4,458 bases of DNA, taken from a virus. Its lineage: Duplodnaviria; Heunggongvirae; Uroviricota; Caudoviricetes. Shown one piece after another: positions 1 to 4,458 of the stretch; position 1 is the stretch's first letter, and the number at the start of each line of letters is the position of its first letter. A program made the translations under genes and the position numbers. Where the stretch lies: IMG/VR virus record IMGVR_UViG_2690315994_000021, one strand, 5' to 3'. The notes beneath the pieces were generated by a model. It made no database searches. It was not told the origin of the DNA and saw nothing but the letters and a program-made list of their open reading frames with translations.

Positions 1-68
1 GCGATCTGCTGGTAGTGACGCGCCCAGCTCTGAGCCTCAAGACGATCCTGAATGTAATAAGCGTTCAT
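1..68 (-). CDS. Hypothetical prophage early-region protein, 5' end only (gene continues beyond the left edge)
   Basis: Minus-strand ATG at 68-66 opens a frame that stays open to position 1 ([23 protein letters not shown]...). AGGAG (plus 76-80 as ctcct) lies 7 nt upstream of the ATG. Same orientation as the upstream minus gene, consistent with a leftward operon. The N-terminus looks familiar from E. coli prophage small proteins, but I cannot name it reliably. Confidence 0.55.
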
Positions 69-938: not shown

Positions 939-1877
939 TTAATTTATCTTTTCAACATTTCCATGAATCAACAAGTCGTAGGCAAGAAATAGTTTCCTAT
1001 ACTGGGTTTTTAAATTGTCAACGTCGCATGTCTTGAATTGAACAAACGCTTCTTTTTTAACATAATCTTCAATCTCCTCTTTGGGGATATTTTTTATGTT
1101 CTTAATGACTATAGACAATTCTTTGTACTTTTTGAACGTTGCATCCTTTATATCTTTGATGTTGGTGTAAATTTTATTTGCATTGATTTTATCTAAGGTG
1201 ATTTTATTGAGCAAGTCGTCTAGTTTTCCGTGGCGTTCAATGCGTTGATTTAGTTTTAACACATATTTAGCTGGCAAACTTAACTCTTTCAAATTACATG
1301 AGGTTATAGTTTTTGAAAATGGAAGTTGTAATGAGTTTACTGAGCCTAATATGAAATCTATGGCTAATTTATTAGATATTTCATTTTTATTAAATAAGTA
1401 ATCTTCAAGATAATTTATTTCTTTAACTTGTGTGAATACATACTTTTTATCGCCTAGAGCAACAACTAAATTTTTTCCTTGTTTAACACTTTCTTCAAGT
1501 CTGTCTAAGTCAGAAGGTGAAACCAATAGAGTATCTAAGTGCCCTTTTTCACCCTCATTAATGATAAGTGTTTTGATGGCTCTTTGATACCTTAAAACAT
1601 CATAAGGTGAGAGCCCTTCATCAACAGCACTGATCTCATCATAGATCTGTTTATAGTTATCTGTTTTAACAGATGTATATGTAATTTGTAGCTGTTGATC
1701 GGTAATCTGTTTTGGTACTACTTCCTGTTCATTCTCTTTATATTCAATCAAAATTATTCTTTCAGCTGATTTTCGACCATCTTCTCTAGGTAGTTGTGAG
1801 GAAAAATCAGAAAGAAGTTTCTTTACATTCCTGTCAGTTAAAGAATATCCAAGAAAAACTATTGGATTTTTAATCAT
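939..1877 (-). CDS. SIR2-family protein, 3' portion: longest start-codon-initiated segment of a longer disrupted gene (frame stays open upstream to 2132)
   Basis: The 312-aa track ORF starts MIKNPIVFLGYSLTDR, which looks like an internal SIR2-like strand and not an N-terminus. Translating the same frame upstream of the ATG gives, with no stop until 2135-2133, ...NINKKAKIIITTNYDAFIKNLL...WSELYKIHGDIKDPH...: a TTNYD motif (2102-2088) and an HG motif (H at 1979-1977). This matches the sirtuin TQNID and catalytic HG motifs. There is no ATG, GTG or TTG in frame between 2132 and 1877, so the track boundary is an artefact of start-codon searching. Confidence 0.75.
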   Translation of the reverse strand: MIKNPIVFLGYSLTDRNVKKLLSDFSSQLPREDGRKSAERIILIEYKENEQEVVPKQITDQQLQITYTSVKTDNYKQIYDEISAVDEGLSPYDVLRYQRAIKTLIINEGEKGHLDTLLVSPSDLDRLEESVKQGKNLVVALGDKKYVFTQVKEINYLEDYLFNKNEISNKLAIDFILGSVNSLQLPFSKTITSCNLKELSLPAKYVLKLNQRIERHGKLDDLLNKITLDKINANKIYTNIKDIKDATFKKYKELSIVIKNIKNIPKEEIEDYVKKEAFVQFKTCDVDNLKTQYRKLFLAYDLLIHGNVEKIN

Positions 1878-2525
1878 GTTAGATAGTATCTTGGCACTAA
1901 TGAGTATAGATTTGTTGTCATATTTTTCGTAATCATCTTTATTTATGATTATTGAGTGTGGATCCTTTATATCACCATGGATTTTGTATAACTCACTCCA
2001 TCCAATAGTATCTTCGAAAAAACCATTATTTCCAATATAGAGTTTTGGAGTTACATTTTGCTCTTGAAGTAAATTTTTTATGAAAGCATCATAATTTGTA
2101 GTGATGATTATCTTGGCCTTTTTATTAATGTTTTAAATGATGCTAATTCATCAAGATTTACATCCTTTCTGATTGTGTTATTAGAAAATCTTTGGCATAT
2201 AGCGTATTTAAATGGTGAAATATCTTCACTAAAAACCCTCTTGGCATCTAGTCCATTTAATTTTAATTTGCCAGTCCTAAACAATAGATTGTAATCATTT
2301 TCAATTTTACTTGCTGCCTCTGTATAAATCTTATGATCGATATCATTATCACTGTTATTTTTATGTGATTCTTTTATTGTTAAAAGATAACTATAGAAAT
2401 CATTTGTGGGATTTGTTATTTTCCAATACTCGTTTAATAGCTCTTCCCACGTTGGGTAGTTCTCTAAATATCTTTTTGAAATGCCTGAGCCAATAAAGAC
2501 TATTGGGTAATTTTTGAATTCAAAA

Positions 2526-2535
2526 TTTTTTTTTT
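2526..2535 (-). repeat. A10 (plus-strand T10) homopolymer spanning codons 3-5 of the SIR2-like gene; frameshift or slippage site
   Basis: Ten consecutive T at plus 2526-2535, read directly. On the coding strand it gives ATG TCA AAA AAA AAA TTT TGA. A 9-A version reads straight into the SIR2 N-terminal domain. Confidence 0.9.
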
Positions 2536-2582
2536 GACATATCCATATACCTTAAGCTCTGCTTGAAACATCCATTCTATAA

Positions 2583-2652: not shown

Positions 2653-3345
2653 CTACCCATGTTTTCTATATGTCTGTGGCATGCTCCCAATAACTTTCCC
2701 AAATATAAATACCCGATTCATTTCGTCTTTTTCGATCGGGTCCCATGGTGAGTAGCTCTTGTTATCAGAGATAACCAGCAGCTTATCCTTCATCATTTGC
2801 AGGCGCTTTACATGGGCTGTGTCGTCGTACAGAAACGCATAGATACCATCACCGTCGAAAGATTTAACAGTGATATCAACGAACAGAAGATCACCTGGTT
2901 CGATCGTTCCTGACATGCTGTCACCGCGTACGTTAATGATGCGGATATTTTCTGCCTTCCTGCCATCGAACATGTGACGAGCATCGTCAAACGAGTACTC
3001 AACCGAGCGTAGGACTTCTACAAACTCACGGTTGATGACACCCGGCCCAGCACTGACTTCTATATCAAGAACGTCAATCTTGAAGTATTTGGAATGGTTG
3101 ACAGCAGGCTTCCCTGATTGTTGACCGTCATTTCTCATCGGGCCTATGCCTGATGAGAGCCACTCTGTTCGAACACCCAATGCATTAGCTATTTCAACAA
3201 TTTTTGTTGAGCCGCGTGCGTTGCCGCTTGTCAGTCTCCAGATTGTGGGTTGAGCTACGCCAGACGCCTTTGCAAGAGCGCCTTGAGACATTCCAGATTG
3301 TTCCATCGCTAGGTTTAAGCGATCAGCAAGAGTTTCTTTTTTCAT
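2653..3345 (-). CDS. CI-like prophage repressor: N-terminal XRE-type HTH plus C-terminal LexA/S24 autopeptidase domain
   Basis: The track ORF 2653..3381 starts at a TTG; the likely true start is ATG 3345 (MKKETLADRLNLAMEQSGMSQGALAKASGVAQPTIWRL...), giving 230 aa. The HTH is in the N-terminus. The C-terminal part has VRGDSMSGTIEPGDLLFVD (Ser nucleophile) and HVKRL (Lys), matching the LexA/UmuD/lambda CI Ser-Lys dyad pattern, with a candidate Ala-Gly cleavage site in EVSAGPG. It is divergent from a Cro-like gene. Confidence 0.85.
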   Translation of the reverse strand: MKKETLADRLNLAMEQSGMSQGALAKASGVAQPTIWRLTSGNARGSTKIVEIANALGVRTEWLSSGIGPMRNDGQQSGKPAVNHSKYFKIDVLDIEVSAGPGVINREFVEVLRSVEYSFDDARHMFDGRKAENIRIINVRGDSMSGTIEPGDLLFVDITVKSFDGDGIYAFLYDDTAHVKRLQMMKDKLLVISDNKSYSPWDPIEKDEMNRVFIFGKVIGSMPQTYRKHG

Positions 3346-3455: not shown

Positions 3456-3683
3456 ATGACAAATCAAACCATTCAACTCGCAATCAGTATTACAGGTAGT
3501 CAAAAACGACTGGCAGATCTATGCGGTGTAGCCCAGCCCACTGTTTGGCGTTGGCTACACGGTGGCGGAATTGATGCCCGCTATGTAATGAAAATTGTCT
3601 CAGCCACTGGTGGAAAGATTAAACCAGCAGATATTCGTCCCGACCTTGCACCATTGTTTAACGCGAGTAATTCTGCCGCCTAA
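3456..3683 (+). CDS. Cro-like HTH regulator (YdaS-like family)
   Basis: The track ORF starts at TTG 3450, but ATG 3456 has AGGA at the right spacing. Protein MTNQTIQLAISITGSQKRLADLCGVAQPTVWRWLHGGG...TGGKIKPADIRPDL matches, from memory, the YdaS/Cro-like pattern (ITGSQ, HTH, TGG, DLRPD). It is divergent from the repressor. Stop is TAA at 3681-3683. Confidence 0.8.
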   Translation: MTNQTIQLAISITGSQKRLADLCGVAQPTVWRWLHGGGIDARYVMKIVSATGGKIKPADIRPDLAPLFNASNSAA

Positions 3684-4253: not shown

Positions 4254-4420
4254 CAGGTTCAGAAATGGCGAAAGCCGGTCTGCGGGAACAGAGCCGACTT
4301 TCAGGTGCAAATCGTAACGCACTCATTGCGGAAGGAATTATGGCAAACACTGTGAACCGCCCCGGTTTTCCTGGAGAGTGTTTTATCTGTGAACTCAGGC
4401 TGCCAGATCATCGTTTCTGA
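4250..4420 (+). CDS. Small hypothetical ORF (56 aa), translationally coupled to the upstream gene
   Basis: Its ATG (4250-4252) overlaps the upstream TGA stop (4251-4253) in an ATGA arrangement. Protein MTGSEMAKAGLREQSRLSGANRNALIAEGIMANTVNRPGFPGECFICELRLPDHRF contains a CxxC. It is below the ORF-track size cutoff and I recognise no homology. Confidence 0.3.
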   Translation: MTGSEMAKAGLREQSRLSGANRNALIAEGIMANTVNRPGFPGECFICELRLPDHRF

Positions 4421-4458
4421 TGGAAGCATAATAAGCTTTTTCTGCTTCTGCCGGAGGG

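What the first reader, a model, noticed from the sequence alone, without database searches (positions are those of the whole stretch)
2108..2135. Second frameshift between the SIR2 Rossmann region and the TTNYD motif
The N-terminal domain frame ends at TAA 2110-2108 (...ASFKTLIKRPR*). The downstream frame opens after TAA 2135-2133 and reads NINKKAKIIITTNYD. The two frames overlap for about 22 nt, which contain an A5 run (2123-2119) and an A4 run (2134-2131). One added base there fuses them as ...SFKTLIKKAKIIITTNYD.... A5 is too short for efficient slippage. Two independent 1-nt homopolymer changes in one gene look more like sequencing error or real decay than regulation.
Basis: seen in the sequence. 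Interest (0 to 1): 0.45.

Follow-up and report, generated by a model that had tools for sequence, protein, structure and literature searches.

The report
One-base deletion in dead SIR2 gene
A prophage gene for a SIR2-type candidate anti-phage enzyme has lost one A from a run of six, on top of an earlier one-base gain near its start, so this is an ordinary decaying gene and neither a regulatory device nor a sequencing mistake.

Summary
On the minus strand one frame ends at TAA 2110-2108, and the next opens after TAA 2135-2133. The two frames overlap by 22 nt, which hold an A5 run at 2123-2119.

The gene is a single 533-aa "SIR2 family protein". It matches the PADLOC candidate PDC-S25 over its full length and sits just downstream of the cI-type repressor of a lambdoid prophage. 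All 166 complete E. coli genomes that carry it have A6 here, and none has A5. Homologs at 40-75% identity, from Enterobacteria to Firmicutes and temperate phages, are also single ORFs that read through ...KKAKxIITTNYD.

The window is NCBI contig CYBJ01000081.1. The same A5 allele, with A10 at the first site and a private E155K change, appears in independent Logan assemblies of two read sets. One of these lacks the IS element that ends this contig. The deletion is therefore a real inherited mutation.

The deletion stops translation three codons later, upstream of catalytic Asn149 and His188. No start codon follows until Met at 1877, and there is no frameshift-stimulating structure. The verdict is routine pseudogene decay in a degrading prophage, of low interest. 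The only mildly notable point is that the A9 tract at the first site gained an A independently on three haplotypes.

The parts
2119..2123 (-). A5 run, the site of the 1-nt deletion. The ancestral state is A6, codons K140-K141 (AAA AAG) of the intact protein.
   Evidence: Alignment to four complete genomes. 0 of 166 complete genomes have A5.
2108..2110 (-). Premature TAA that ends the N-terminal frame three codons after the deletion (...LIKRPR*).
2133..2135 (-). TAA that opens the downstream (C-terminal) frame. The frames overlap over 2132-2111.
939..2540 (-). Whole SIR2-family gene (PDC-S25 type), here a pseudogene. It runs from ATG 2540 to the stop at 941-939. The intact version is 1602 nt / 533 aa. 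GC is 30% against about 50% in the flanks.
   Evidence: (annotation of intact copies).
2526..2535 (-). A10 run, the first frameshift (+1 relative to A9). The ATG frame then stops at TGA 2522-2520 (MSKKKF*).
2078..2078 (-). Private G->A substitution giving E155K. This Glu is conserved in at least 90% of the family and aligns with ThsA E118 in the TTNYDxLIE motif.
2094..2096 (-). AAT codon of catalytic Asn149 (TTNYD). It lies downstream of the frameshift and is no longer translated in frame.
   Evidence: Aligned with ThsA N112. Invariant in alignment A2.
939..1877 (-). The only callable remnant ORF (312 aa, from the first in-frame start, Met at 1877). It lacks the GSG loop, Asn149 and His188.
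   Evidence: Exact-match look-up finds it in only 4 contigs.
2653..3345 (-). cI-type repressor with S24 peptidase domain (230 aa), directly upstream of the SIR2 gene on the same strand.
4356..4458 (.). End of an IS3-family insertion sequence that cuts the prophage replication gene O. It is a further sign that the prophage is decaying.

Best explanation
The window carries a dead allele of a single-gene, prophage-borne SIR2 NADase-type candidate defence gene (PADLOC PDC-S25). The gene sits in the slot just downstream of the cI-type repressor. A real, inherited 1-nt deletion shortened an A6 run (codons K140-K141, AAA AAG) to A5. Translation of the N-terminal frame now ends three codons later. The strand that leads into TTNYD (catalytic Asn149), His188 and the whole C-terminal helical domain are out of frame. 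The next possible start codon is Met at 1877. The allele already carried a +1 change (A9 to A10) at codons 2-5 and also has a private E155K change in the conserved TTNYDxxxE motif. In the window's own strain an IS3-family element has also cut the replication gene. The most likely order (inferred) is that the hot A9 tract mutated first. The gene, no longer under selection, then picked up the deletion and the missense change by ordinary replication slippage and point mutation. What is shown: the lesion, its uniqueness, its inheritance, and the single-ORF architecture of the family. What is inferred: the order of events, loss of function, and the NADase/anti-phage role of the intact protein.
For: The window differs from O55:H7 RM12579 in the gene only by +A (A10), -A (A5) and G->A at 2078. 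Of 166 complete E. coli genomes with the gene, 0 have A5, and 163 have A9 and 3 have A10. Intact copies are annotated as one 533-aa SIR2 family protein. PADLOC PDC-S25 matches residues 3-526 at E = 1.3e-234, and Pfam SIR2_2 scores 84 bits. Of the 120 best-scoring homologs listed, down to 40% identity, nearly all are 526-578 aa with 97-100% coverage, and the junction ...KKAKxIITTNYD is continuous. Homologs in Kosakonia, Morganella and Listeria prophages and in phages Javan227 and BK5-T are single genes. The window equals NCBI CYBJ01000081.1. Logan assemblies of ERR137783 and ERR10017185 carry the same A10 + A5 + 2078A allele, and the latter lacks the IS junction. N149 and H188 align with the ThsA catalytic residues N112 and H152. 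The model places residue 140 at the end of helix 129-141, just before strand 144-147. There is no in-frame start before 1877.
Against: I could not inspect raw reads. ERR137783 may be the read set behind the submitted assembly, so firm independence rests on ERR10017185 and one further contig that was not shown. The order of the three lesions is not resolved. A10 recurs independently, so sharing it with DEC5E may be coincidence. Loss of function is inferred, not measured. No member of PDC-S25 has a demonstrated anti-phage or NADase activity in the literature I could search.
Confidence: 0.9

Rival explanations
1. Sequencing or assembly error: the true genome has A6, and possibly A9, and the gene is intact.
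For: Both indels lie in homopolymers, the classic site of platform errors. The source is a fragmented draft assembly: a 4.5-kb contig ending in repeats.
Against: The same three changes appear in the submitter's assembly and in independent Logan assemblies of two runs. One of these runs comes from a genome without the IS insertion. Contig breaks at repeats suggest short-read data (my inference), and from general knowledge such data rarely miscount an A5/A6 run. The accompanying G->A substitution is not a homopolymer-type error.
Confidence: 0.04
2. Programmed recoding or regulation: a -1 ribosomal slip at A_AAA_AGG (rare AGG in the A site), together with transcriptional slippage at A10, yields a low dose of full-length toxic NADase.
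For: A -1 shift at the A5 run would give exactly the wild-type protein sequence. From general knowledge, AGG is a rare E. coli codon, tRNA-Lys is slippery on A runs, and A10 is long enough for RNA polymerase slippage.
Against: The A5 state is derived and private: 0 of 166 genomes have it. The heptamer is not of the X_XXY_YYZ type. There is no upstream SD-like element and no downstream structure (MFE -3.7 kcal/mol, z = +0.72). Two rare events would have to combine. The E155K change argues for relaxed selection.
Confidence: 0.03
3. Genuine two-gene arrangement: a Rossmann part and a catalytic/C-terminal part made as separate proteins.
For: The two frames overlap by 22 nt, which looks like overlapping genes.
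Against: The downstream frame has no ATG, GTG or TTG until 1877, well past TTNYD and His188. The upstream part is itself cut off from its start by the A10 frameshift. Every full-length homolog examined is one ORF.
Confidence: 0.005
4. Adaptive inactivation: the A9 tract acts as an on/off contingency switch for a costly abortive-infection enzyme, and the A5 deletion locks the OFF state under selection against the gene.
For: A10 arose on three different gene haplotypes (O55, O157, other). An unrelated homolog carries an independent nonsense codon. Three lesions hit the 1.6-kb gene, against only one point difference from the nearest relative in the other 2.7 kb of aligned sequence.
Against: Only 3 of 166 genomes are A10 and none is A8 or A11. 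That is far less variable than true phase-variable loci. The numbers are too small to separate selection from neutral decay, and some A10 calls in long-read assemblies could be errors.
Confidence: 0.1

Closest known systems
PADLOC phage-defence candidate PDC-S25 (NCBI 'SIR2 family protein' WP_000038831.1 / WP_000038832.1)
   Same: The restored protein matches the PDC-S25 profile end to end (3-526 of 528, E = 1.3e-234). It differs from the O55:H7 copy of the gene only at the three lesions. It has the same single-gene architecture and the same prophage position.
   Different: The window's copy is broken by two frameshifts and carries E155K. PDC-S25 is only a candidate: I found no experimental test of it.
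Thoeris ThsA (SIR2-SLOG NADase; PDB 6LHX, 8BTO)
   Same: The SIR2 domain is homologous (E = 4e-12). TTNYD Asn149 aligns with N112, His188 with H152 and E155 with E118. It is the top Foldseek match.
   Different: There is no SLOG/STALD cyclic-ADPR-binding domain, because the match covers only the SIR2 core. No ThsB/TIR partner gene lies next to it. The C-terminal half is a helical domain with no match of its own.
DSR2 (defence-associated sirtuin 2; e.g. PDB 8WY8)
   Same: It is a single-protein SIR2 NADase defence with an N-terminal SIR2 domain and a C-terminal sensor region. The SIR2 domains superpose (target-normalised TM 0.62-0.65).
   Different: DSR2 is about 1000 aa with a long HEAT-like sensor that binds phage tail tube protein. 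This protein is 533 aa, and no sequence-level match to DSR2 was seen.
Lambda rexAB slot and other morons next to cI
   Same: The gene is co-oriented with and immediately downstream of the lysogeny repressor. It is AT-rich (30% GC) relative to its flanks, as expected for a lysogen-expressed exclusion gene.
   Different: It is unrelated in sequence and in predicted mechanism to RexA/RexB.
dnaX-type programmed -1 frameshift site (A_AAA_AAG)
   Same: The intact gene contains ATA AAA AAG, an in-phase A_AAA_AAG heptamer, at exactly this spot.
   Different: No stimulatory elements are present, and the KK pair is not conserved in distant homologs. In the window the heptamer is destroyed (A_AAA_AGG).

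Membership tests
SIR2_2 / defence-type SIR2 NADase domain (Pfam PF13289) | Profile match above Pfam's gathering score | tested here: met
   The restored protein scores 84.2 bits against a cut-off of 24.5, over residues 144-283. The region matched by the profile lies wholly downstream of the frameshift in the window.
SIR2_2 / defence-type SIR2 NADase domain (Pfam PF13289) | Catalytic Asn and His equivalent to ThsA N112 and H152, plus an N-terminal GxG NAD-binding loop | tested here: met
   N149 (TTNYD) and H188 (KIHGD) align with ThsA N112 and H152. GSGIS lies at residues 17-21. All are invariant or nearly invariant across 32 homologs.
SIR2_2 / defence-type SIR2 NADase domain (Pfam PF13289) | One continuous ORF that links the NAD-binding loop to the catalytic residues, in this window's copy | tested here: not met
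   The frame breaks at A10 (2526-2535) and at A5 (2119-2123). The remnant ORF starts at 1877.
SIR2_2 / defence-type SIR2 NADase domain (Pfam PF13289) | NAD+ hydrolysis activity | not testable with these tools
   Needs biochemistry.
PADLOC PDC-S25 | Full-length match to the PDC-S25 HMM | tested here: met
   PDLC04967 at E = 1.3e-234, residues 3-526 against profile positions 5-526 of 528.
PADLOC PDC-S25 | Stand-alone single gene with no conserved partner | tested here: met
   The neighbours differ between E. coli, Kosakonia, Morganella, Listeria, Streptococcus and Lactococcus contexts. Only a repressor or an integrase recurs nearby.
PADLOC PDC-S25 | Demonstrated anti-phage activity | not testable with these tools
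   The only text mention found lists it as a predicted candidate in an O157:H7 strain.
Thoeris ThsA | C-terminal SLOG/STALD signal-binding domain | tested here: not met
   The ThsA profiles and PDB chains match only the SIR2 core: query 145-286 against ThsA 106-250.
Thoeris ThsA | Adjacent ThsB (TIR) gene | tested here: not met
   The flanking genes are the S24 repressor and kil/gam.
Programmed ribosomal frameshift site | The frameshift is conserved among homologs and has a slippery heptamer plus a stimulatory element | tested here: not met
   0 of 166 relatives need a shift. A_AAA_AGG is not a canonical heptamer. The downstream 79 nt fold at -3.7 kcal/mol, z = +0.72.
Phase-variable (contingency) homopolymer | Tract-length polymorphism across the population at this tract | tested here: not met
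   The A6 site is monomorphic in 166 genomes. The separate A9 site shows only 3 of 166 at A10.

The most novel reading that the evidence does not exclude
The A9 tract at codons 2-5 could be a true contingency switch that lets lambdoid prophages turn a costly abortive-infection NADase on and off. In that reading the A6-to-A5 deletion seen here is a selected 'lock' of the OFF state, for example one that permits superinfection by other lambdoid or Stx phages in the O55:H7/O157:H7 lineage. Independent A10 events on three haplotypes and an independent nonsense allele in another species leave this open.
Probability: 0.08. Interest if true: 0.5.

Novelty: already known. Interest (0 to 1): 0.1.

Why it matters
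It matters little beyond annotation. The locus should be annotated as one frameshifted pseudogene of a SIR2-family (PDC-S25) candidate defence gene. It should not be annotated as separate small ORFs or as a 312-aa "hypothetical protein". The case also shows inconsistent automatic handling of the A10 allele, which is given an ATA start in two genomes and a TTG-truncated protein in another. For defence-system surveys, presence of this gene in O55:H7-like strains does not mean an active system.

Tried and rejected
- **Phage collection, nucleotide search.** The gene has no near-identical match there. A protein-level search found only Firmicute temperate phages.
- **Apparent two-ORF hit in phage BK5-T.** This was a single 536-aa ORF30 plus an overlapping antisense ORF call, not a split gene.
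- **Exact look-up of the 58-aa middle fragment.** Nothing was on record.
- **Literature search for the accessions** (ERR137783, ERR10017185, GCA_001284825, CYBJ01). No paper was found, so the isolates' identities are unknown.
- **Intragenic compensation.** I checked whether the +1 and -1 changes cancel. They do return the ATG and the C-terminal part to one frame. That frame, however, has TGA at 2522-2520 and garbles residues 5-140, so there is no rescue.
- **Frameshift-stimulating RNA structure downstream.** None was found.
- **Fold search for the C-terminal domain.** Only the SIR2 half found matches. The model's weakest parts are residues 329-370.

Full report
**Observation.** On the minus strand one frame reads ...DELASFKTLIKRPR* and ends at TAA 2110-2108. 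A second frame opens after TAA 2135-2133 and reads NINKKAKIIITTNYD... The two frames share 22 nt (2132-2111), which contain an A5 run at 2123-2119 and an A4 run at 2134-2131. The 'first' frameshift is an A10 run at 2526-2535. From ATG 2540 the reading is MSKKKF followed by TGA at 2522-2520.

**The gene.** The window is the immunity region of a lambdoid prophage. On the minus strand a cI-type S24 repressor (3345-2653) is followed by the gene in question (2540-939). A kil/gam-type recombination region lies beyond it. On the plus strand lie cro-like YdaS, YdaT and the start of replication gene O, which is cut at 4355 by the end of an IS3-family element.

- The gene is AT-rich (30% GC against about 50% in the flanks).
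- 166 of 5,426 complete E. coli genomes carry it at 99% identity or better, always once and always on the chromosome.
- In these genomes it is annotated as one 1,602-nt, 533-aa 'SIR2 family protein'.
- The intact protein matches Pfam SIR2_2 (84 bits) and the PADLOC single-gene candidate PDC-S25 over its whole length (E = 1.3e-234).

**What changed.** Against O55:H7 strain RM12579 the gene differs at exactly three positions: +A in the A9 tract, -A in an A6 tract (now the A5 run), and G->A at 2078. An 86-nt probe around the A5 run matched all 166 genomes. Every listed match spans 87 nt at 98.9%, and no record reaches 99%, so A6 is the universal state and none shares A5. At the first site, 163 genomes have A9 and 3 have A10. 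Adding one A at 2119-2123 gives ...SFKTLIKKAKIIITTNYD..., identical to the intact protein.

**Single gene or two genes.** A protein search returned 789 relatives. The listed ones range from 75% down to 40% identity and come from Leclercia, Kosakonia, Yersinia, Proteus, Morganella, Providencia, Xenorhabdus, Enterococcus, Listeria, Bacillus, Streptococcus and others. Nearly all are 526-578 aa and cover 97-100% of the query.

- Alignments show an unbroken, conserved junction, F-K-x-F-L-K-K-A-K-x-I-[IV]-T-T-N-Y-D.
- In Kosakonia and Morganella prophages the gene again follows the S24 repressor directly.
- In Listeria, Streptococcus phage Javan227 and Lactococcus phage BK5-T (ORF30, 536 aa) it lies next to the integrase. 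It is always a single ORF.
- In the window, the downstream frame has no ATG, GTG or TTG until Met at 1877, past both catalytic residues.

The two-gene reading is therefore rejected.

**Error or real mutation.** An exact-sequence look-up of the 312-aa remnant ORF identified the window as NCBI GCA_001284825.1, contig CYBJ01000081.1. It also found the ORF in only three other contigs.

- The Logan assembly of ERR137783 is identical, including the IS junction.
- The Logan assembly of ERR10017185 has the same A10, A5 and 2078A. It continues for 516 nt into an uninterrupted replication gene where the window has the IS.

The allele therefore exists in at least two different genomes and in independently assembled read sets. 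It is an inherited mutation, not an assembly artefact. I could not inspect the reads themselves.

**Consequence.** The SIR2 core is homologous to Thoeris ThsA (PDB 6LHX, E = 4e-12). Asn149 of TTNYD aligns with the ThsA catalytic residue N112, and His188 with H152 (the catalytic roles of N112 and H152 are from my knowledge of the ThsA literature).

- An AlphaFold model (pLDDT 78.7) places residue 140 at the end of helix 129-141, just before strand 144-147 that leads into TTNYD.
- Foldseek matches ThsA, the DSR2 SIR2 domain and KomC through the N-terminal half only.
- The deletion thus separates the GSGIS NAD-binding loop from all catalytic residues and from the C-terminal helical domain, which is presumably the sensor.
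- The private G->A at 2078 changes Glu155 to Lys. This Glu is conserved in at least 90% of the family and aligns with ThsA E118 in TTNYDxLIE.

With the A10 frameshift, this makes three lesions in 1.6 kb. Against its nearest relative, DEC5E, the window shows only one other point difference in the remaining ~2.7 kb of aligned sequence, apart from an alignment-edge gap at the IS junction.

**Regulation.** A -1 ribosomal slip at A_AAA_AGG would in principle restore the protein. However, the state is derived and private. The heptamer is not canonical. There is no upstream SD-like element. The downstream 79 nt fold no better than shuffled sequence (-3.7 kcal/mol, z = +0.72). The +1 and -1 changes bring the start and the C-terminal part back into one frame, but that frame has an immediate TGA and garbles residues 5-140, so this is not intragenic suppression.

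**Most likely history (inferred).** The A9 tract, by far the longest homopolymer in the gene, gained an A. The same change arose on three different haplotypes: O55 (DEC5E), O157 (strain 155) and another (PG20180057). Once the gene was silent, the lineage accumulated the A6-to-A5 deletion and E155K. One descendant then acquired the IS insertion in gene O. An unrelated homolog (78% identity) carries an independent nonsense codon about 20 codons after TTNYD, so loss of this gene recurs.

**Comparison and novelty.** Functionally the intact protein resembles single-protein SIR2 NADase defences such as DSR2, and the SIR2 module of ThsA. It is not a member of either family: it has no SLOG domain, no ThsB partner, is half the size of DSR2 and has a different C-terminal domain. 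It is a member of PADLOC's untested candidate PDC-S25. The finding itself, a homopolymer deletion in an already frameshifted prophage gene, is ordinary pseudogene decay. The interest score is low.

Noticed in passing
window 2526-2535 (minus strand): The A9 tract at codons 2-5 is A10 here and in 3 of 166 complete genomes, on three different gene haplotypes (O55 DEC5E, O157 strain 155, O2:H6 PG20180057). This is a recurrent +1 hotspot. No A8 or A11 was seen in the rows inspected, and the weakest match still spans A9.
   Followed up: yes
L009 2034-3638, L010 2034-3638, L001 3377-4723: Automatic annotation of the same A10 allele is inconsistent. Two genomes get a 534-aa protein that starts at a non-canonical ATA codon (WP_072612786.1). 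DEC5E gets a 448-aa protein that starts at TTG (window 2284) and lacks the GSG loop.
   Followed up: partly
window 2078 (minus strand): A private G->A gives E155K. The Glu is conserved in at least 90% of the family and aligns with ThsA E118 in TTNYDxLIE. It lies only about 45 nt from the deletion and creates a new A6 run.
   Followed up: yes
window 4356-4458: The end of an IS3-family element (IS629-like, from memory of its terminus TGAACCGCCCCGG) interrupts replication gene O after about 35 codons. It is absent from the otherwise identical Logan contig of ERR10017185. This multi-copy element explains the 28,892 places matched by the whole window.
   Followed up: partly
L020 1945-3552 (Logan SRR32466435): A 78%-identical homolog in another lambdoid prophage is inactivated independently, by a nonsense codon (LLNE*GVTP) about 20 codons after TTNYD. 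It leaves the same 312-aa remnant ORF call.
   Followed up: yes
L002 3121-4722, around the codons equal to window 2119-2126: In the intact gene the site reads ATA AAA AAG, an in-phase dnaX-type A_AAA_AAG slippery heptamer. A -1 slip there would give a truncated product of about 150 aa. The KK pair is not conserved in distant homologs, and no stimulatory structure follows.
   Followed up: partly
L004 and L008, the cro-like YdaS gene (equal to window 3536-3540): O157:H7 copies of this prophage have a 5-nt deletion in the cro-like YdaS gene, annotated 'frameshifted'. The window's copy is intact there. Different lineages have decayed at different genes of the same prophage.
   Followed up: no
window 1-54: Both Logan contigs stop at window position 55, and the submitted contig ends 54 nt further on. 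This suggests a repeat boundary in the gam/bet region, which is shared by several lambdoid prophages, and hence a short-read assembly.
   Followed up: no
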